Positions 53,886-62,013 of a stretch of 64,000 nt of DNA are shown piece after piece (the stretch's first letter is position 1; each line of letters begins with the position of its first letter). Origin of the DNA: a virus. Below the pieces are notes generated by a model. It did no database searches and had not been told where the DNA came from. It saw only the letters and a list, made by a program, of their open reading frames with translations. Where the stretch lies: IMG/VR virus record IMGVR_UViG_3300028648_000084, positions 17,532 to 81,531 of that record; one strand, 5' to 3'. Both the position numbers and the translations under genes were made by a program.

Positions 53886-54251
53886 TCAGAATGTCTCCAC
53901 GATCTCGACGGCGCATGAGCCCCCGGGAACGCATGCACCACGCTCAATGGTGAGATGGTCGATCTGCGAGTCGTCCTCGTAGACACCTGCGTGCGCAAGC
54001 GCATCAAGCAGGCTCTTCATGGAGTTGTCGATGTCCCGGCGCCGGCGATCGGGTGGATGAAGAATGACGATCATGTCGAGGCGACCCCGGAAGGTTGATG
54101 TGTCGGGACTCAGCCGCGCTGCCGCGAGGAGGGAGCACACGCGTTCGCGGTAGCTCCTCCCCTCACGGCTCAACAGGACGCGCGGGCCGACATGCCGCCA
54201 GTAGCGATTGACCGACGGCGGAAATGGAAGGGTGAGTACGCGTCGTCTCAT
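53886..54251 (-). CDS. rusA: RusA Holliday junction resolvase
   Basis: LPFPPSVNRYWR...PDRRRRDIDNSMKSLLDAL..AGVYEDDSQI. Confidence 0.92.
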   Translation of the reverse strand: MRRRVLTLPFPPSVNRYWRHVGPRVLLSREGRSYRERVCSLLAAARLSPDTSTFRGRLDMIVILHPPDRRRRDIDNSMKSLLDALAHAGVYEDDSQIDHLTIERGACVPGGSCAVEIVETF

Positions 54252-54754
54252 CGCTTCCACGGCGGCGTCGAACCCGCGGCCACAGGTTGGCGCGGAGCGC
54301 CACCCGTTGGCCCGCTTGCGACGGCAGCGCCGGCTGGCCCATGGCCTCCGCCGTGATTGCCTCGCTTCGCGTAGCCCTTGATGATGTTGGTGAACTCGCC
54401 GCTGTCATCGCGGCGCTTGAGCCCGACACTGATCTCAAGCGGGATGTTGTGCAGTTCGACCGAGTCGCGCGGTTGCATCACGCTGATCGCCCGGCAGATC
54501 GACGAGAGTTCGCCACGCGCGATCTTCACTGCCATCGCGCTGTCGTTCTCAAGATTGAGCCTTGCCCAGACGAAGCGGCCTCGGAACTCGCCTTCGATCA
54601 CCTGGAATGTGAGCTGCAGGTACTGGCCGTTGCCCGCCTTCGTCGGCTTCATCTCCGACTCGGTGATGATGGCGGCGTAGCGACCTGCAGGCAGCGGATC
54701 GAACTGAACTGCGGGATCGATCTGGTTCGCGTCGAAGTTGTTGAGATGAGCCAT
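54248..54754 (-). CDS. DUF669-family phage ssDNA-binding protein
   Basis: FDPLPAGRY...EMKPTKAGNGQYLQL; Gly-rich tail ending PPWKR. Confidence 0.85.
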   Translation of the reverse strand: MAHLNNFDANQIDPAVQFDPLPAGRYAAIITESEMKPTKAGNGQYLQLTFQVIEGEFRGRFVWARLNLENDSAMAVKIARGELSSICRAISVMQPRDSVELHNIPLEISVGLKRRDDSGEFTNIIKGYAKRGNHGGGHGPAGAAVASGPTGGAPRQPVAAGSTPPWKR

Positions 54755-56246: not shown

Positions 56247-58088
56247 CTAGCTCTTACCGTCCGATGAGATCTTCATCGCAATGTGACCACGCTGCGATCC
56301 ATCGATGTCAAGCAGCTCGCCCATACCCGCATCGCGGAGCTTCTTGCGCAAGGTGCTTGCGCACTTGTGCACGGTGTTCCTTCTCCGCGTGTTTCCGTCC
56401 CAGACATCCGCCAGCAAGGTCTCCATGCTGAGGTAGGCGCCTGGACGGAGTGCGAGGCGCCGGAACAGTTTCAATTCGATTGTGCTTCCGAGGAAGCACC
56501 CTTTGTCGCGGAAGCATGCACGGAGGCCGTCCTCGTCGACCGCGGGCGCCTTGTAGAAGGCCGACTTTCCGTTCGCGGCACCCGAGGATGACGCATCGGT
56601 GGTGTCAGCGAGAGCTGGTGGTGGACTTAGAGCCGGCGCGGGCGGGGCAAGGCGCGCAAGGATTCCCAGCGGTGAGTCATGGGGCACTTCGCCGTCGACG
56701 ATCCGATTCGCCTCCTGCTTGACGAGCGCTACCACAGCACGGTGCACCTGGTCGGCATGGCGACGATGCAATTGGAACACCTGTTCCGCGGCGGCGGCGG
56801 TCGATCCGGGGAGCGAAGAGAGCACTCGACCAACTTCACCGAACTGGGAGAGGAAGCCCTGCACCGAGGTGATCGAGCGGATCTTGAGCACGGACCCGAC
56901 ATACCTTTCGACGAGCGTCTTGTGAAGCTCGTCGCGGCAACGCATGTCGAGTCCAGTGGCATACATCTCGACAGGATCGTTGTCGTTGCCCATCTCGGCG
57001 GCGATGGCCGCGAAGCGCCGGTCGATGCACTGGGAGCAGCGCCCGCAATGGCTGTGCTGAGTCGTGCGCTCCTTCGTGTGGGCGCAACTGATTGTCTTCG
57101 CGCAGAGCGGCGCGAGGGCAGTAGTCCTGAGCTGCTCCAGAATCTCGGTGCGAGTTCGCCATAGGAACGGGTTCTCGATCTCGAACGGAACCTCGAAGAC
57201 GAGAGATAGCAGTTCTCGCAACCGCCTGATCGTGAGGGGATGGGTGGTGCGACTCGCGCGACCACCGACGAGTTCTGCTGCGATGGGGAGATTGAATGAA
57301 ATGGGCCCGTTCTCGTAGAAGCGGAATCGCGAGAGGCCAAGCCCACGCGCCACGGCGCCCGCCATCGTCGCGAACACGAACGACCGTGTGCGTTGCGTGT
57401 TGTCGACGCCGAGATCCTTGCCTTTGTTCAATCCAACTGGAATGTGGACGGGCCCGTGGCCAGACTTCGCGTGCGCGGCGAGAGCGGTGACGAGGTCACG
57501 CTGCGGCTTGCCGACCTTACTCGTGGAGACATGGCTCACGAGCGCCACTCGGCGCTGGCCGACCACGATCTCCTGCACGGCGCCACTGAATGAGTCGAGG
57601 CCACCTGAGAACAACATCACTTCCTCGATCCGGGGACCTTCGACCTTGCCAGTCGCGAATGGGAGGTATGCCTCGATTGGTGCGGGACTTTTGTTCTTCT
57701 CGAAGATGAATTCGTAATCGTCATCCGACAGGAACCCCAGTGCCGACGTGAGCGCCTCCAAGGTGGCGCGAGCATTCCAGAACGCGACATCTCGCACAGG
57801 AACCTCGAAGCGGAGATGGCGACGCCACTTCTTCCCGTACTCGAAAGAGGAGTCGCCTCCGCGGCTGACCGCCTGATCGGCCGTGTAGACATAGGCCGCG
57901 ATCTCGAGCAGATCGAGAGCTCTCGGTGGAAGCGGCGCCACAAGCTTGTTCGGGATGTCGCCACTTTTCAGGTGGACCTCTCGGGCACCTTTCCCGATCG
58001 ACAGCTTGATCGGGCGAGCGCCCGTCCAGCGTTTCGCCTTCGACGAGGTCCGAGCGCCGCCGCAGAGGATGAGGCGGGGTGCGCTCAT
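56247..58088 (-). CDS. QueC-like (QatC-type) PP-loop enzyme fused to a C-terminal OmpR-like winged helix
   Basis: LFSGGLDS PP-loop; TQRTRSF; SCAH...HCGRCSQC zinc site; tail LFRRLALRPGAYLSMETLLADVWDG...HKCASTLRKKL. Confidence 0.85.
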   Translation of the reverse strand: MSAPRLILCGGARTSSKAKRWTGARPIKLSIGKGAREVHLKSGDIPNKLVAPLPPRALDLLEIAAYVYTADQAVSRGGDSSFEYGKKWRRHLRFEVPVRDVAFWNARATLEALTSALGFLSDDDYEFIFEKNKSPAPIEAYLPFATGKVEGPRIEEVMLFSGGLDSFSGAVQEIVVGQRRVALVSHVSTSKVGKPQRDLVTALAAHAKSGHGPVHIPVGLNKGKDLGVDNTQRTRSFVFATMAGAVARGLGLSRFRFYENGPISFNLPIAAELVGGRASRTTHPLTIRRLRELLSLVFEVPFEIENPFLWRTRTEILEQLRTTALAPLCAKTISCAHTKERTTQHSHCGRCSQCIDRRFAAIAAEMGNDNDPVEMYATGLDMRCRDELHKTLVERYVGSVLKIRSITSVQGFLSQFGEVGRVLSSLPGSTAAAAEQVFQLHRRHADQVHRAVVALVKQEANRIVDGEVPHDSPLGILARLAPPAPALSPPPALADTTDASSSGAANGKSAFYKAPAVDEDGLRACFRDKGCFLGSTIELKLFRRLALRPGAYLSMETLLADVWDGNTRRRNTVHKCASTLRKKLRDAGMGELLDIDGSQRGHIAMKISSDGKS

Positions 58089-58858
58089 CCGGCGGCTCTC
58101 CGTCGGACCTCGCTGCGGATCTTCGTGATGCAGTAGCTCGCGAAACGGCGAGCTGAGTCTTCCGACAGTCCCGTCTCGAACTTGGACTTGCCGTACCAAC
58201 CGGACGCGAACTCGCGAACGATCGATGTGACCTGGGAGCTGTGCTGCCGAAGTGCGTCGAGAAACTCGTTGTGGGCTGCGGAGTCAGCGAACCGCTGGTT
58301 CTGGCCGACATGCTGCGAGAGTTCCCGGCTCAGGTGGTAGGTTAGATAGCGTTCGAAGAAGCGAGTGAAGAACGCATGCGTCAGCGTTCTGAATCCCCCC
58401 TCGGTCCCGAATGCGCCCAGAGCTGACTTTGCGCTTGCTGCCGCATCACTCCACAGGAGGTCGGGCGCGGCGCCTGCCGTCGCGCTGATCGCCTCGATGG
58501 CCGCCATCTGCGCCATCTCGCCGAGGTCGTTGCGAGCTCGGTTCGCCGTCAGGTGGCGATCGACCGCGTCACTGAATCCTGCGAGTACATCCGTGAGCGA
58601 CGCATCGTTGGAGACATCGATCGCGCACTCGCGAAGCGCGCTGGCGAAATCACCCTTGCGTGCCGCCGCGACGATCCTCGCCAGTAGCCAGACTGAGTAC
58701 GCGACGCCTCTGTCCCGTCCAGCAAGTTCGAGACCGCGCTCGGCAGCCTCAAGCGTTGCCTCAGCGACAGCCGCGACATCCTCGCCGAGCGCGAGTGCCT
58801 CGACGACATGCCACCACTTCGAGGTATCAGGCGGGAACTGAAGACGGTTGTGGCCGAT
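58085..58858 (-). CDS. QatB-like partner protein (257 aa) with an ATC start codon
   Basis: Frame is open for 114 codons upstream of ATG 58516 with no ATG/GTG/TTG. GGAG lies 7 nt before ATC-GGC-CAC-AAC-CGT. Stop codon overlaps the QueC-like ATG. Confidence 0.7.
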   Translation of the reverse strand: MGHNRLQFPPDTSKWWHVVEALALGEDVAAVAEATLEAAERGLELAGRDRGVAYSVWLLARIVAAARKGDFASALRECAIDVSNDASLTDVLAGFSDAVDRHLTANRARNDLGEMAQMAAIEAISATAGAAPDLLWSDAAASAKSALGAFGTEGGFRTLTHAFFTRFFERYLTYHLSRELSQHVGQNQRFADSAAHNEFLDALRQHSSQVTSIVREFASGWYGKSKFETGLSEDSARRFASYCITKIRSEVRRRAAG

Positions 58859-59001
58859 GGGCGGACTCCGGAAACCCGTTCCACCGGAGCCGAAGCCCCG
58901 ACTGAGACAGATCTTGCGACAGTATTGCCGATGCCTGCCTCGCCTTCAAACGGGCACGCCGGTGGTCGACCTCGCAGCTCCCATTCCGCTAGGGTTCGAG
59001 C

Positions 59002-59745
59002 ATGGACTGTTGGGCCAAGGGACATGGGCCATGCCGCGGCGCAATCACCGGCGAGCATTGGGTGCCGCGTGGGATTGCCACTGGACCGTCAGTCGACGTG
59101 CGAGGAATGACCTTCTGTGGCAACGAGACCCGCACCATCCCGTGGTCCACGGCGCTGAGCAACATGCTCTGCGAGCGCCACAACCACGAGGTCTCTAGCG
59201 GGCTCGATATGGAGGCGATCCGCCTCAAGCGGTCCATCGAAGCGGTGGCAGACGAGAGCGATGTCTGCCGCCCGGGAGCGCTGTGGCGCGGCCCGAACGT
59301 GATCGAACTTCCGTTCGATCAGCTTGCGCGCTGGATGACAAAGACCTGGTGCAATTTCGTCGCCGCCAACCGTGGCGCCGTGATGCCCGCCGCCGCGGCT
59401 TACGCGATGGGAGTCGAGGCGGCCGACATCAGGATGTTCCCTTACCTGCGCGCAACCCTGCACACGGAAGTGATGCTCGACACCGCGATCGGCCACATCG
59501 GCGTGCTTTCACTCGAAGACGCGAACGGTGTCATCGGATTCCAAGGAGAGGTCTTTGGCCTTACCTTCCTCGTTACCTGCCATGATTTGCGGGGAACGCC
59601 GCGGCGCATTCGGGTCGACGGAGAGGGTGTCATCTCAAGCAACGAGCTGAAGCGTCGGGTCGAGCTCGACTTTCGGGCGCATGTCCCTATGCACGGTACT
59701 GTCGTTGTCGCGAAGCTCGTGCTGGGATCGGGTCAGACCACTTGA
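59002..59745 (+). CDS. Hypothetical protein with an HNH-like N-terminus
   Basis: C-x7-C...GEHWVP...LCERHN pattern; divergent from the QatB-like gene. Confidence 0.55.
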   Translation: MDCWAKGHGPCRGAITGEHWVPRGIATGPSVDVRGMTFCGNETRTIPWSTALSNMLCERHNHEVSSGLDMEAIRLKRSIEAVADESDVCRPGALWRGPNVIELPFDQLARWMTKTWCNFVAANRGAVMPAAAAYAMGVEAADIRMFPYLRATLHTEVMLDTAIGHIGVLSLEDANGVIGFQGEVFGLTFLVTCHDLRGTPRRIRVDGEGVISSNELKRRVELDFRAHVPMHGTVVVAKLVLGSGQTT

Positions 59746-60131
59746 GCGGCGCGCCGCCACGCTGACCTCTGTTCCTTCCAATCCGTGTGGGCCACGATCG
59801 GCCGCAACCGCCTTTCGTTGAGCCGGTCGCGACCGGTCCTGGCGCTGCCCCAGTGCAGCAGCTCCTCCTGAATGTCCGGGGCGAGCAGGGTCAAGTTCAG
59901 GATCTGCGTCACGCGAGGCTGCGTGATCCGGGTGAGCCGGGCGAGTTCCGACAGACTCGCCACCGAGCCGTCTCTCAGGAGCCGATCGAAGCGGATCGCA
60001 AGCGCCATCAGACGCGCCACGCGCGGCACCCGAGGCGGCAGCACCTTCTCTGCGGGTGCCGGCTCATCCGCGAGGACAACCCGACCACCGCTCGTGCGAG
60101 TGAGGTGAACTTTCGCTCGTAGTGCCATCAT
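59733..60131 (-). CDS. Recombinase-associated small HTH protein
   Basis: ATGA-coupled to the recombinase gene; homolog of the 17041-17400 fragment. Confidence 0.75.
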   Translation of the reverse strand: MMALRAKVHLTRTSGGRVVLADEPAPAEKVLPPRVPRVARLMALAIRFDRLLRDGSVASLSELARLTRITQPRVTQILNLTLLAPDIQEELLHWGSARTGRDRLNERRLRPIVAHTDWKEQRSAWRRAAQVV

Positions 60132-61495
60132 GCGGCTTCCTCCAGTGATCCCTTGGTGAGCGCGGTCACGCCCGTCGGATGGAACATGACTTCAACGCTG
60201 CTCTCCGCGCCGTCGTACTCGACGCGGTCGATCGCGAGATCAAGCACCCGCGTCTGCTCGCGTGGCGTGAGCGCTGCCCACAGCGACTCGAAGTCGTCAA
60301 GCGCCATCGTCACATCCGCCACGCCGACGGCGCGGTCAGACTCCCGCGCCGACGCGACTGCCGCGTTCATGATCGCTGGTTGACGCAGCGCCACCGCGAG
60401 CTGCTCCAGCACGACGCGTTCGATCTCTGCCGCAGGCAGCGATGGTGACGGGCAGTTCGCTCGAGTGGTTCGGTTCGCCTTCGAACAGACGTAGTACCGA
60501 TAGCGCTTCGTGCCTCGGCCCGAGAGCACATGCACCATGGCGCAGCCGCACGCTCGGCAGTGCAGGCGACCCTTGAGCATCGCACCATTCTCGGAGGCAG
60601 CCGGGGTCGAGCCAGAACGACCGTTCGCATGGAGTTGCTTCTGCACTCGCGCGAACGTCGCCTCCGACACGATCGCCTCATGCTCACCCGGGAACCGCTC
60701 CCCTTTATGGACAATCTGGCCGGTGCACAGTGGGTTCGTGAGAAGCTGGTGCAGCGACGGCCGGTCGAACGGGCGACCGCCGAGGCGTTTGCCGTTCTGG
60801 GTCGACCAGACCTTGTTCGTCCACCTCCGGCGATCGAGCTCCTCGACCACCGGCAGGAGCGAGCCCTTCTCCAGGTACAGCTCGAAGATGGTCCGCACGC
60901 GCGACGCTTCCTCGGGGTTCACCACGAGGCGCGGGCTCGGTCCTGAGCGATCGACCTCGTACCCGAGCATCGGCTTTCCGCCCGCCCACTTCCCTCGGCG
61001 GCGCGCCGCGGCAATCTTGTCGCGGATGCGCTCGCCGATGATCTCGCGCTCGAACTGCGCGAAAGAGAGCAGGACGTTCAGCATCAGGCGACCCATCGAG
61101 TCACGGGTATTGAACGCCTGCGTCACCGAAACGAACGCCACGCCGTGGCGTTCGAACGTCTCCATGACTTTCGTGAAGTCGAGGAGCGACCGGCTGAGGC
61201 GATCGACCTTGTAAACCACCACGCAGTCGATCGCCCCGGACGCGATATCGGCGAGAAGTCGCTGGAGCGCGGGCCGCTCGATGTTGCCGCCCGTGAATCC
61301 ACCGTCGTCGTAACGCGCCGGAAGACAGGTCCAACCCTCTGTCTTCTGACTGGCGATGTACGCCTCGCCGCTCTCGCGCTGGGCGTCGAGAGAGTTGAAC
61401 TCCTGGTCGAGCCCCTCCTCGGTGCTCTTCCTCGTGTAGACGGCGCAGCGCATGCGCTTCGTGTTCGTCGCGACGGCGGCCATGCGGCGACTCAC
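60128..61495 (-). CDS. Large serine recombinase (integrase)
   Basis: CAVYTRKS catalytic Ser, SLDAQ, VYKVDRLSRS, recombinase domain, CRACG...YYVC zinc ribbon; start GTG 61495 or ATG 61483. Confidence 0.95.
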   Translation of the reverse strand: MSRRMAAVATNTKRMRCAVYTRKSTEEGLDQEFNSLDAQRESGEAYIASQKTEGWTCLPARYDDGGFTGGNIERPALQRLLADIASGAIDCVVVYKVDRLSRSLLDFTKVMETFERHGVAFVSVTQAFNTRDSMGRLMLNVLLSFAQFEREIIGERIRDKIAAARRRGKWAGGKPMLGYEVDRSGPSPRLVVNPEEASRVRTIFELYLEKGSLLPVVEELDRRRWTNKVWSTQNGKRLGGRPFDRPSLHQLLTNPLCTGQIVHKGERFPGEHEAIVSEATFARVQKQLHANGRSGSTPAASENGAMLKGRLHCRACGCAMVHVLSGRGTKRYRYYVCSKANRTTRANCPSPSLPAAEIERVVLEQLAVALRQPAIMNAAVASARESDRAVGVADVTMALDDFESLWAALTPREQTRVLDLAIDRVEYDGAESSVEVMFHPTGVTALTKGSLEEAA

Positions 61496-62013
61496 TGCGG
61501 CCTCTCCAGACCGAAGAAGCGGAAGCCGTTGATGTGGGAGCCTGTGATCAACTTCGCGACGGCCGACAGCGAGGGGAGGTGCTGGCCATCCCACTCGAAG
61601 CCGTCATCGAGGACGTTCACGACGAGTCGACGCCCCTTGTAGTCGCGGACGATCGAAGTGCCGGGACGCGGCAGCCGGGGATCGTGGTTAGTCGGTACGC
61701 CGTGGATCTCGCGCGAACGAGGGATTGTGCGAATGGCACCAGAGCGAGGTGGCGTCACGCGCACTTCGGCATCGTTCGCAAGCTCTTCGGCGCGTCGGAG
61801 CGCGCGATCCGAGAGTCCGCCCTCAGCGTTCGCTTGGATGCGCCACGCGATGCGGCGGATGAGGTACTGGCGGTGTCGGCTTCGAGCCTTCTCGCCGACG
61901 ACTTCCGCGTAGCGCTCGTGCAGCTCGCCGACGGTCATCCGTTCGAGTGCAGCGATCTCTGTTTCGATATCGATGATCATGTACTTGGTCTCCTTGCCAC
62001 CCGCATCGTTCAC
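61492..62013 (-). CDS. DUF2924-family protein
   Basis: LERMTVGEL..RY, LIRRIAWRIQANAEGGLS, PGTSIVRDYKG, SLSAVAKLITGSHINGFRFFGL. Confidence 0.88.
   Translation of the reverse strand: MNDAGGKETKYMIIDIETEIAALERMTVGELHERYAEVVGEKARSRHRQYLIRRIAWRIQANAEGGLSDRALRRAEELANDAEVRVTPPRSGAIRTIPRSREIHGVPTNHDPRLPRPGTSIVRDYKGRRLVVNVLDDGFEWDGQHLPSLSAVAKLITGSHINGFRFFGLERPQ

What the first reader, a model, noticed from the sequence alone, without database searches (positions are those of the whole stretch)
58516..58950. Non-canonical ATC start (or point-inactivated ATG) on the QatB-like gene
Seen: 114 sense codons upstream of the called ORF contain no ATG/GTG/TTG. GGAG lies 7 nt before ATC GGC CAC AAC CGT CTT. 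The leader has a C(UUCG)G hairpin (58886-58899) and a plausible TTGAAG-17-AATACT promoter (58949-58921). From memory, homologs begin MGH.RLG.LP. Inference: either translation is deliberately throttled by an AUC start, or one G-to-C change has silenced the module.
Basis: partly seen in the sequence, partly recalled or inferred. Interest (0 to 1): 0.6.

Follow-up and report, generated by a model that had tools for sequence, protein, structure and literature searches.

The report
Conserved ATC/ATA start on QatB-like gene
A prophage gene for a QatB-like protein really does begin at ATC instead of ATG, and because every known member of its clade keeps an ATC/ATA-type codon there while the protein stays under strong selection, this is a working weak start codon, not a dead gene or an assembly error.

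Summary
On the minus strand the frame is open from the stop at 58947-58945 to the stop at 58087-58085. Its first ATG/GTG/TTG is at 58516. ATC sits at 58858-58856, 7 nt after GGAG.

More than 500 homologues of about 260 aa cover 99-100% of the ATC-started protein, and almost all begin MGH.RLG.LP at exactly that codon.

The silenced-gene reading fails:
- A collinear relative (L001, 78% nt identity) has ATA there, with the same GGAG spacing.
- All six full-length members of the window's clade have Ile at the start position. They form one clade (support 100/99) nested among Met-start lineages.
- dN/dS between window and L001 is 0.086 for the 113 codons upstream of the first ATG, at dS 0.77.
- The selective regime changes at the ATH codon.

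The protein folds like QatB (Z 11.3). It is coupled to a QatC-like enzyme carrying a C-terminal winged helix. In QatB a free N-terminal glycine is essential.

Most likely, initiation occurs at AUC/AUA with initiator tRNA behind a good Shine-Dalgarno site and yields little Met-Gly-His protein.

The gene also almost lacks internal in-frame ATG/GTG/TTG codons.

This is a new member of a known kind, of moderate interest. The scan has reported ATH starts before, but only as a genome-wide habit in Asgard archaea. Here it is specific to one gene.

The parts
58944..58949 (-). -35-like hexamer TTGAAG
   Evidence: Read. Kept as TTGAAT in L001 with the same 17-nt spacing. Below the threshold of the consensus scan.
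58921..58926 (-). -10-like hexamer AATACT
   Evidence: Read. GATACT in L001. Predicts a leader of about 55 nt.
58886..58899 (-).
   Evidence: Present in the sequence. Not in the minimum-energy fold, z = +0.45. Disrupted by a 3-nt insertion in L001.
58866..58869 (-). Shine-Dalgarno GGAG, 7 nt before the start
   Evidence: Identical motif and spacing in L001 (CCGGAG, 7 nt, ATA).
58856..58858 (-). ATC start codon, at the family-wide position of the initiator Met
   Evidence: Aligns with the M of MGH in about 160 loci and 120 proteins. ATA in L001. Ile in all six full-length clade members.
58085..58858 (-). QatB-like coding sequence, 257 codons
   Evidence: Homologues cover 99-100% of it. omega 0.043 against L001. 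AF2 model pLDDT 85.5. QatB 9y01_A Z 11.3.
58514..58516 (-). First canonical ATG (conserved internal Met115), the start chosen by gene callers
   Evidence: The public gene calls for this sequence are 140 and 143 aa (P0121, P0122). E114-M115-Q117 are family-conserved residues.
56247..58088 (-). QatC-like enzyme with C-terminal winged helix. Its ATG overlaps the QatB-like stop (ATGA) and has its own GGAGAG 7 nt upstream
   Evidence: PADLOC QatC 1.6e-56. Pfam QueC and Trans_reg_C. SGGLDS intact, omega 0.106 against L001.
59002..59745 (+). Divergently transcribed 247-aa gene of unknown function, sharing the 143-bp control region
   Evidence: ORF. 80% identical copy in L001 only. No Pfam, PADLOC or PHROG match. 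Belongs to clusters of hypothetical proteins.

Best explanation
The QatB-like gene is translated from the near-cognate codon AUC (AUA in the nearest relative), which lies at the position where the rest of the family has AUG. A GGAG Shine-Dalgarno site 7 nt upstream places the 30S subunit. Initiator tRNA reads AUH with a third-position mismatch, so the product starts with fMet. In E. coli reporters such codons give roughly 1-2% of the AUG rate. Removal of the Met before Gly2 would expose the N-terminal glycine, which in QatB and in type IV CBASS CD-NTases is the acceptor for the QueC-family partner. The downstream QatC-winged-helix gene has its own ATG and Shine-Dalgarno site, so the likely result is little substrate protein relative to enzyme. 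Shown here: position, conservation, selection, fold and partner. Inferred: that initiation occurs at this codon, the low yield, Met removal and the modification.
For: (1) Family start. 120 listed homologues and about 160 fetched loci begin M/V/L-G-H at exactly this codon (about 144 ATG, 9 GTG, 6 TTG after hand correction).
(2) No alternative start. There is no ATG/GTG/TTG in frame between the upstream stop and codon 115, and no upstream ORF with a canonical start in the leader (read).
(3) Conservation. L001, collinear over 8.7 kb at 78% nt identity, has ATA with the same GGAG spacing. P0001, P0124, P0125, P0128 and P0002 (down to 68% identity) all have Ile there. The six form one clade at 100/99 support within Met-start lineages. 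The other clade members were called as truncated proteins of 140-227 aa, so the callers chose internal starts and no call begins at the family position.
(4) Selection. omega is 0.086 for codons 2-114 and 0.016 for codons 115-257 at dS 0.77-0.96. The 20 in-frame triplets before ATH show 7 non-synonymous and 5 synonymous changes plus a codon indel (pN/pS 0.55). The 20 codons after it show 1 and 5 (pN/pS 0.05). Upstream peptides of clade members do not align, whereas the residues from Ile onward are nearly identical.
(5) The upstream in-frame starts of relatives are not shared. The ATG used for P0124 lies in the -35 hexamer, and the TTG of L001 is TTC in the window.
(6) ATA is only 1.5% of Ile codons in the window's genes, so it is an odd choice for an ordinary Ile.
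(7) The window and L001 rank first and second of 128 loci for depletion of in-frame ATG/GTG/TTG relative to their own QatC gene. GTG accounts for 1 of 30 Val codons against 22% in the rest of the family (p = 0.007).
(8) The need for a free Gly. The QatB fold is matched (Z 11.3, rmsd 4.1 over 199 residues, next best Z 5.1). A QatC partner lies directly downstream in 138 of 142 loci. In QatB, a G2D change or a His-tag before M1 abolishes defence, and an NDG-modified GTSKAY peptide was detected (PMC13279940, PMC13639016).
(9) AUC, AUA and AUU initiate at 1-2% of AUG, with N-terminal Met confirmed for AUC (bioRxiv 10.1101/063800). Lineage-fixed ATT (infC) and ATC (rnhC) starts are confirmed in Listeria (PMC13068326).
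Against: There is no direct evidence of initiation: no reads, ribosome profiling or N-terminal peptide. DNA is available for only two clade members (ATC and ATA); for the other four only the residue Ile is known. The start-codon rules of the presumed Planctomycetota host are unknown. Three relatives have an in-frame canonical start 13-30 codons upstream, so an extended product cannot be excluded for them. The upstream/downstream contrast in substitutions rests on 20 codons on each side. Depletion of internal start codons is a family-wide tendency (22% against 33% GTG), and the window and L001 are only its extreme; the two are not independent. That G never appears at the third position in six tips is not statistically significant.
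Confidence: 0.8

Rival explanations
1. The module is silenced: loss of the ATG left an untranslated gene, as in the reader's second alternative.
For: AUH codons are poor starts. A comparable event exists elsewhere in the family: L063 has ATA where its 98.8%-identical twin L045 has ATG, with only 2 differences in 921 nt of gene region.
Against: omega is 0.043 over the gene and 0.086 over the part upstream of the first ATG, at dS of about 0.8-0.9. The partner QatC is intact with omega 0.106. The Ile codon is shared by a 100/99-supported clade reaching 0.61 substitutions per site. The frame is intact in all members.
Confidence: 0.04
2. In this clade the protein starts further upstream and carries a 13-30-residue N-terminal extension, with Ile as an ordinary internal residue. 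The window copy would then have lost that start.
For: L001, P0001 and P0125 have an in-frame TTG 13 codons upstream. P0124, P0128 and P0002 have an in-frame ATG 20-30 codons upstream. Gene callers used these starts.
Against: The window has no such start. The upstream starts sit at different places. One lies inside the conserved -35 hexamer, and L001 has a stop between it and the gene. Upstream triplets evolve nearly neutrally and carry an indel, and the upstream peptides are not conserved. The TTG of L001 has no properly spaced Shine-Dalgarno site, whereas ATA has GGAG at 7 nt. In QatB an N-terminal extension abolishes function.
Confidence: 0.08
3. The real product is the 143-aa C-terminal half, started at ATG 58516 as annotated by gene callers.
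For: It is the first canonical start. The public calls P0121 and P0122 are 140 and 143 aa.
Against: Met115 is an internal, family-conserved residue within a helix of a single globular domain. Codons 2-114 are under purifying selection. The homologues are full length. The only Shine-Dalgarno-like sequence (GGCGAG) abuts the ATG.
Confidence: 0.04
4. Assembly or sequencing error: the true codon is ATG.
For: The window is a metagenome-derived virus record, and reads cannot be inspected here.
Against: Independent assemblies carry Ile at this position (L001, P0001, P0124, P0125, P0128, P0002). Seven contigs carry the truncated 140-aa call with the window's exact C-terminal sequence. The relative has ATA, not ATG.
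Confidence: 0.01

Closest known systems
Near-cognate AUU/AUC/AUA start codons behind a Shine-Dalgarno site (E. coli infC and pcnB with AUU; Listeria infC ATT and rnhC ATC)
   Same: A third-position mismatch to the initiator anticodon, a Shine-Dalgarno site at normal spacing, fixation along a lineage, an expected low initiation rate, and gene callers that truncate the protein.
   Different: Here the gene is phage-borne and encodes the presumed substrate of a protein-conjugating enzyme. No autoregulatory logic like that between IF3 and infC is evident. The third base varies within the clade (C and A). There is no experimental confirmation.
QatB of the QatABCD anti-phage system (PDB 9y01/9y02; PMC13279940, PMC13639016, PMC13376578)
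   Same: An all-alpha fold of about ten helices (Z 11.3, 199 residues). It is encoded immediately upstream of, and overlapping, a QatC-type QueC-family gene. It has a flexible N-terminal tail beginning Met-Gly.
   Different: No sequence match to QatB models or to PDB chains. The N-terminal motif is MGH.RLG.LP rather than MGTS. The tail is about 12 residues rather than 30-90. No QatA or QatD is nearby. The partner carries an OmpR-type winged helix. The module sits beside a serine integrase in prophages and integrative elements.
Start-codon weakening as a tuning mutation (rpoS ATG>ATA in E. coli O104:H4, PMC12864459; rsbW ATG>ATA/ATT in Listeria, PMC13068326)
   Same: A single base change at the third position of the start codon lowers the protein level without destroying the gene.
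   Different: Those are recent strain-level variants, like L063 here. The window's codon is an old, clade-wide state.

Membership tests
Functional near-cognate (AUH) bacterial start codon | The codon aligns with the initiator codon of homologues | tested here: met
   the M/V/L of MGH in about 160 loci falls on this codon.
Functional near-cognate (AUH) bacterial start codon | No canonical in-frame start that could give the conserved N-terminus | tested here: met
   none between the upstream stop and codon 115.
Functional near-cognate (AUH) bacterial start codon | Shine-Dalgarno site at 5-9 nt, kept in relatives | tested here: met
   GGAG with a 7-nt spacer in the window and L001. DNA of the other clade members could not be fetched.
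Functional near-cognate (AUH) bacterial start codon | Coding constraint begins at the codon | tested here: met
   omega 0.086 for codons 2-114. pN/pS is 0.05 after the codon against 0.55 before it, on small counts.
Functional near-cognate (AUH) bacterial start codon | Conserved along a lineage rather than a private mutation | tested here: met
   Six of six full-length clade members have Ile there, and the clade has 100/99 support.
Functional near-cognate (AUH) bacterial start codon | Initiation demonstrated (N-terminal peptide, ribosome profiling or reporter) | not testable with these tools
   No expression data exist for this uncultured virus.
QatB (QatABCD) | QatB helical fold | tested here: met
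   9y01_A Z 11.3, rmsd 4.1 over 199 of 215 residues, next entry Z 5.1. Foldseek places it first with TM 0.48-0.56 but E 0.15.
QatB (QatABCD) | Sequence match to QatB models | tested here: not met
   No PADLOC, Pfam or PHROG family matches. A profile search of the PDB gave no QatB chain.
QatB (QatABCD) | Adjacent, coupled QatC partner | tested here: met
   PADLOC QatC 1.6e-56 with an ATGA overlap. 138 of 142 loci have the partner.
QatB (QatABCD) | N-terminal MGTS motif on a 30-90-residue disordered tail | tested here: not met
   Met-Gly is kept (G2 invariant), but the motif is MGH.RLG.LP and the tail is about 12 residues.
QatB (QatABCD) | Operon with QatA ATPase and QatD TatD nuclease | tested here: not met
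   None in the window's neighbours or among the ten flanking ORFs scanned in four loci. The literature notes that only about a third of QatC genes have them.
QatB (QatABCD) | N-terminal glycine modified by the QueC-family partner | not testable with these tools
   Requires mass spectrometry of the protein.

The most novel reading that the evidence does not exclude
The AUH start is an adaptive setting, not a tolerated defect. It would keep the QatB-like substrate far below its QatC-winged-helix partner. It would also make synthesis of the substrate depend on start-codon fidelity (IF3 activity), so that stress or a superinfecting phage that perturbs initiation raises it. In parallel, the gene has been purged of in-frame ATG/GTG/TTG codons so that the weak start is not out-competed by internal starts, which would produce tail-less decoy proteins. 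The shift may have compensated for the gene acquiring its own promoter after the opposite-strand 247-aa gene was inserted between the integrase genes and the module.
Probability: 0.2. Interest if true: 0.7.

Novelty: new member of a known kind. Interest (0 to 1): 0.5.

Why it matters
Naturally fixed AUC/AUA starts are rare: under 0.3% of core genes in the Listeria survey, and only infC and pcnB are confirmed in E. coli. They are missed by gene callers. Every public call for this clade is either truncated to 140-227 aa or extended upstream, so the true N-terminus is hidden. That N-terminus is the functionally critical part, because a free Gly2 is what QueC-family conjugating enzymes act on in QatB and type IV CBASS. 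Correct starts are therefore needed before anyone tests this widespread, integrase-linked QatBC-like module. The case also offers a natural experiment on dosage between a conjugation substrate and its enzyme.

Tried and rejected
- Scans of metagenome, genome and viral contigs and a search of 401 Planctomycetota genomes returned no further clade member besides L001.
- No match in cultured phage records.
- The genome search cannot draw relatives for a virus record.
- Leader RNA structure: the window leader folds no better than shuffles (z +0.45), L001 gives z -1.42, and there is no shared hairpin.
- No repeats or operator-like sites in the 181-bp control region.
- The sigma-70 consensus scan found no promoter or terminator.
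- No tRNA gene in the window, so no phage-encoded special initiator.
- ATH initiation as a window-wide habit was rejected. This is the only high-GC3 ORF with a long start-less lead: 143 codons. The next longest are 66 or fewer, most with non-coding-like GC3 (one 48-codon lead overlaps the preceding gene).
- One row of the tree (P0006) was trimmed at a wrong internal VGD by my script. This does not touch the Ile clade.

Full report
**What is there**

The window is part of an 85.9-kb IMG/VR virus record, with 64% G+C. The feature lies in a prophage-like block on the minus strand:
- a serine integrase (61594-60128);
- a 132-aa recombinase-associated gene (60131-59733);
- an opposite-strand 247-aa gene (59002-59745, plus strand);
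- the gene in question (58858-58085);
- a 613-aa QatC-like protein with a C-terminal OmpR-type winged helix (58088-56247);
- a sigma-like gene, then AAA_24, DUF669, a helicase and a primase-polymerase.

**Check of the observation**

The minus-strand frame is open from TGA 58947-58945 to TGA 58087-58085. ATC is at 58858-58856. GGAG is at 58869-58866, with the 7-nt spacer TCCGCCC between them.

Codons 115 and 118 are the only ATG/GTG/TTG codons in the whole gene. The 29 triplets between the upstream stop and ATC hold none either.

TTGAAG, a 17-nt spacer and AATACT lie at 58949-58921. They match 8 of 12 consensus positions, which is below the scan's threshold. Both hexamers and their spacing are nevertheless retained in the relative L001, while the sequence just upstream has diverged.

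The UUCG hairpin exists in the sequence. It is not part of the minimum-energy fold, the leader is no more stable than shuffles, and the hairpin is disrupted in L001.

**The family starts at this codon**

A search with the 257-aa ATC-started translation found 511 proteins. The 120 listed are about 260 aa long and cover 98-100% of the query in nearly every case.

Across about 165 fetched loci the codon at this position is, after correcting mis-registered rows by hand, about 144 ATG, 9 GTG, 6 TTG and 2 ATA. Homologues therefore do not start at the equivalent of 58516. Met115 is an internal, conserved residue.

**The Ile-type codon is old and clade-wide**

L001 is collinear with the window over 8.7 kb at 78% nt identity. 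It has ATA at the start position, preceded by the same CCGGAG and a 7-nt spacer.

The 90%-identity clusters around the window's protein contain these full-length members:
- P0001, P0124 and P0125 (P0125 matches the protein encoded in L001);
- P0128, about 76-78% identical;
- P0002, 68% identical.

Every one of them has Ile followed by GHNRLQ. The remaining members were called as fragments of 140-227 aa beginning at internal Met or Val codons. One of these is the 140-aa call found on seven contigs, the longest of them 85,891 nt like the window's own record. The gene callers thus chose internal starts, and no call begins at the family position.

In a maximum-likelihood tree the six Ile sequences form one clade with 100/99 support, nested among Met-start lineages. 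Within-clade paths reach 0.61 substitutions per site. One ancestral change followed by retention is the parsimonious history.

By contrast, the only other ATA in the family (L063) differs from its ATG-bearing twin L045 by 2 bases in 921. It looks like a recent variant.

**The gene is not dead, and the coding constraint starts at ATH**

Between the window and L001:

| Region | omega | dS |
|---|---|---|
| Whole gene | 0.043 | 0.87 |
| Codons 2-114 (untranslated if 58516 were the start) | 0.086 | 0.77 |
| Codons 115-257 | 0.016 | 0.96 |

The QatC partner has omega 0.106 and an intact SGGLDS loop.

The 20 in-frame triplets before ATH show 7 non-synonymous and 5 synonymous differences plus a one-codon indel. 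The first 20 codons after it show 1 and 5.

The in-frame upstream starts that callers used in relatives lie at different places:
- The ATG of P0124 lies within the conserved -35 hexamer.
- L001 has a stop between that position and the gene.
- The TTG of L001 is TTC in the window.
- The upstream peptides of P0128 and P0002 do not align with the window's.

ATA makes up only 1.5% of Ile codons in the window's genes, which makes it an unlikely choice for an ordinary Ile.

**Why the exact N-terminus matters**

An AlphaFold model built on 51 homologues (pLDDT 85.5) is all-alpha with a flexible first 12 residues. Its best structural match is QatB from the P. aeruginosa QatB-QatC complex: Z 11.3, rmsd 4.1 A over 199 residues, with the next unrelated entry at Z 5.1. 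Foldseek also ranks it first.

There is no sequence-level match to QatB models or PDB chains. The downstream gene matches PADLOC QatC at 1.6e-56. A QatC-like gene directly follows the homologue in 138 of 142 loci that have room for it.

Published work shows three things about QatB (PMC13279940; PMC13639016):
- It carries an essential N-terminal MG motif.
- G2D, or a tag placed before M1, abolishes defence.
- An NDG-modified peptide starting at Gly2 has been detected.

By analogy, which is inference, this protein needs Gly2 at a free N-terminus. Only initiation at the ATH codon followed by Met removal can provide that.

**Mechanism**

The most likely mechanism is Shine-Dalgarno-directed initiation at AUC (window) or AUA (L001) by initiator tRNA. 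In E. coli, AUA, AUC and AUU start at 1-2% of AUG, and AUC-started protein carries N-terminal Met (bioRxiv 10.1101/063800). Fixed ATT and ATC starts are confirmed for infC and rnhC in Listeria (PMC13068326).

The QatC gene overlaps the QatB-like stop (ATGA) and has its own GGAGAG 7 nt upstream. The enzyme can therefore be made in excess over its substrate. The low yield and the stoichiometry are inferred, not measured.

**An extra signature**

The window's gene has 2 in-frame ATG/GTG/TTG codons in 256. Both are conserved Met residues, and none of its 14 Val codons is GTG. Neighbouring phage genes have 5.5% such codons and 41% GTG among Val codons.

Relative to their own QatC genes, the window and L001 rank first and second of 128 loci for this depletion. 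Their GTG share is 1 of 30 against 22% in the rest of the family (p = 0.007).

The whole family is also depleted relative to QatC: 22% against 33%, in 103 of 128 loci, Wilcoxon 4e-14. This fits selection against internal initiation that would yield tail-less products, strongest where the true start is weak. It is suggestive only, because the two sequences are related.

**Scope**

ATH initiation is not a habit of this window. No other high-GC3 ORF has a long start-less lead, and no tRNA gene is present.

**Limits**

- No reads or expression data exist.
- The presumed host, Planctomycetota, is inferred only from the nearest homologues.

**Verdict**

The throttled AUC start reading is supported, while its adaptiveness remains open. 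The silenced reading is rejected. This is a new member of a known kind, in an interesting QatBC-like context.

Noticed in passing
window 56247-61594; loci L004, L005, L010, L013, L045, L089-L096, L100, L136, L139, L141, L148, L157, L167 and others: The QatB-like/QatC-like pair lies directly downstream of a serine integrase and a 132-aa recombinase-associated gene (PHROG 14161). This holds in dozens of loci from Planctomycetota, Pseudomonadota, Acidobacteriota, Bacteroidota and viral contigs. It therefore looks like a standard module of a widespread family of integrative elements rather than part of a QatABCD operon.
   Followed up: partly
family-wide (128 loci with both genes): QatB-like genes avoid in-frame GTG relative to their own QatC partners: 22% against 33% of Val codons, in 103 of 128 loci, Wilcoxon 4e-14. 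Overall density of start-type codons is 3.6% against 5.2%. This may reflect selection against internal initiation that would produce tail-less proteins.
   Followed up: partly
L063:308-310 versus L045:2402-2404: A second, independent ATA at the family start. L063 and L045 are 98.8% identical over 2.2 kb, and the gene region differs by 2 bases, one of which turns ATG into ATA. This is a recent start-codon variant in a distant branch.
   Followed up: yes
window 59002-59745 (+); L001:3120-3854 (-): An opposite-strand 247-aa gene of unknown function sits between the integrase genes and the module, and only in the window and L001. It has no Pfam, PADLOC or PHROG match and belongs to clusters of hypothetical proteins. 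Its presence coincides with the module having its own promoter-like site and the weak start.
   Followed up: partly
window 56247-56500 (C-terminus of the QatC-like gene): The OmpR-type winged helix (Trans_reg_C) fused to QatC is aligned in only about 25 of 138 partner genes, mostly those nearest the window from Planctomycetota.
   Followed up: partly
protein P0132 (cluster of P0005): A 912-aa member sits in a cluster of 259-aa QatB-like proteins. Its length fits a read-through or fusion of the QatB-like and QatC-like genes. I did not examine it.
   Followed up: no
window 53886-54404 (-): A 172-codon open frame whose first canonical start is at codon 48, with a lead of coding-like GC3 (0.71). 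This probably results from overlap with the preceding DUF669 gene.
   Followed up: no
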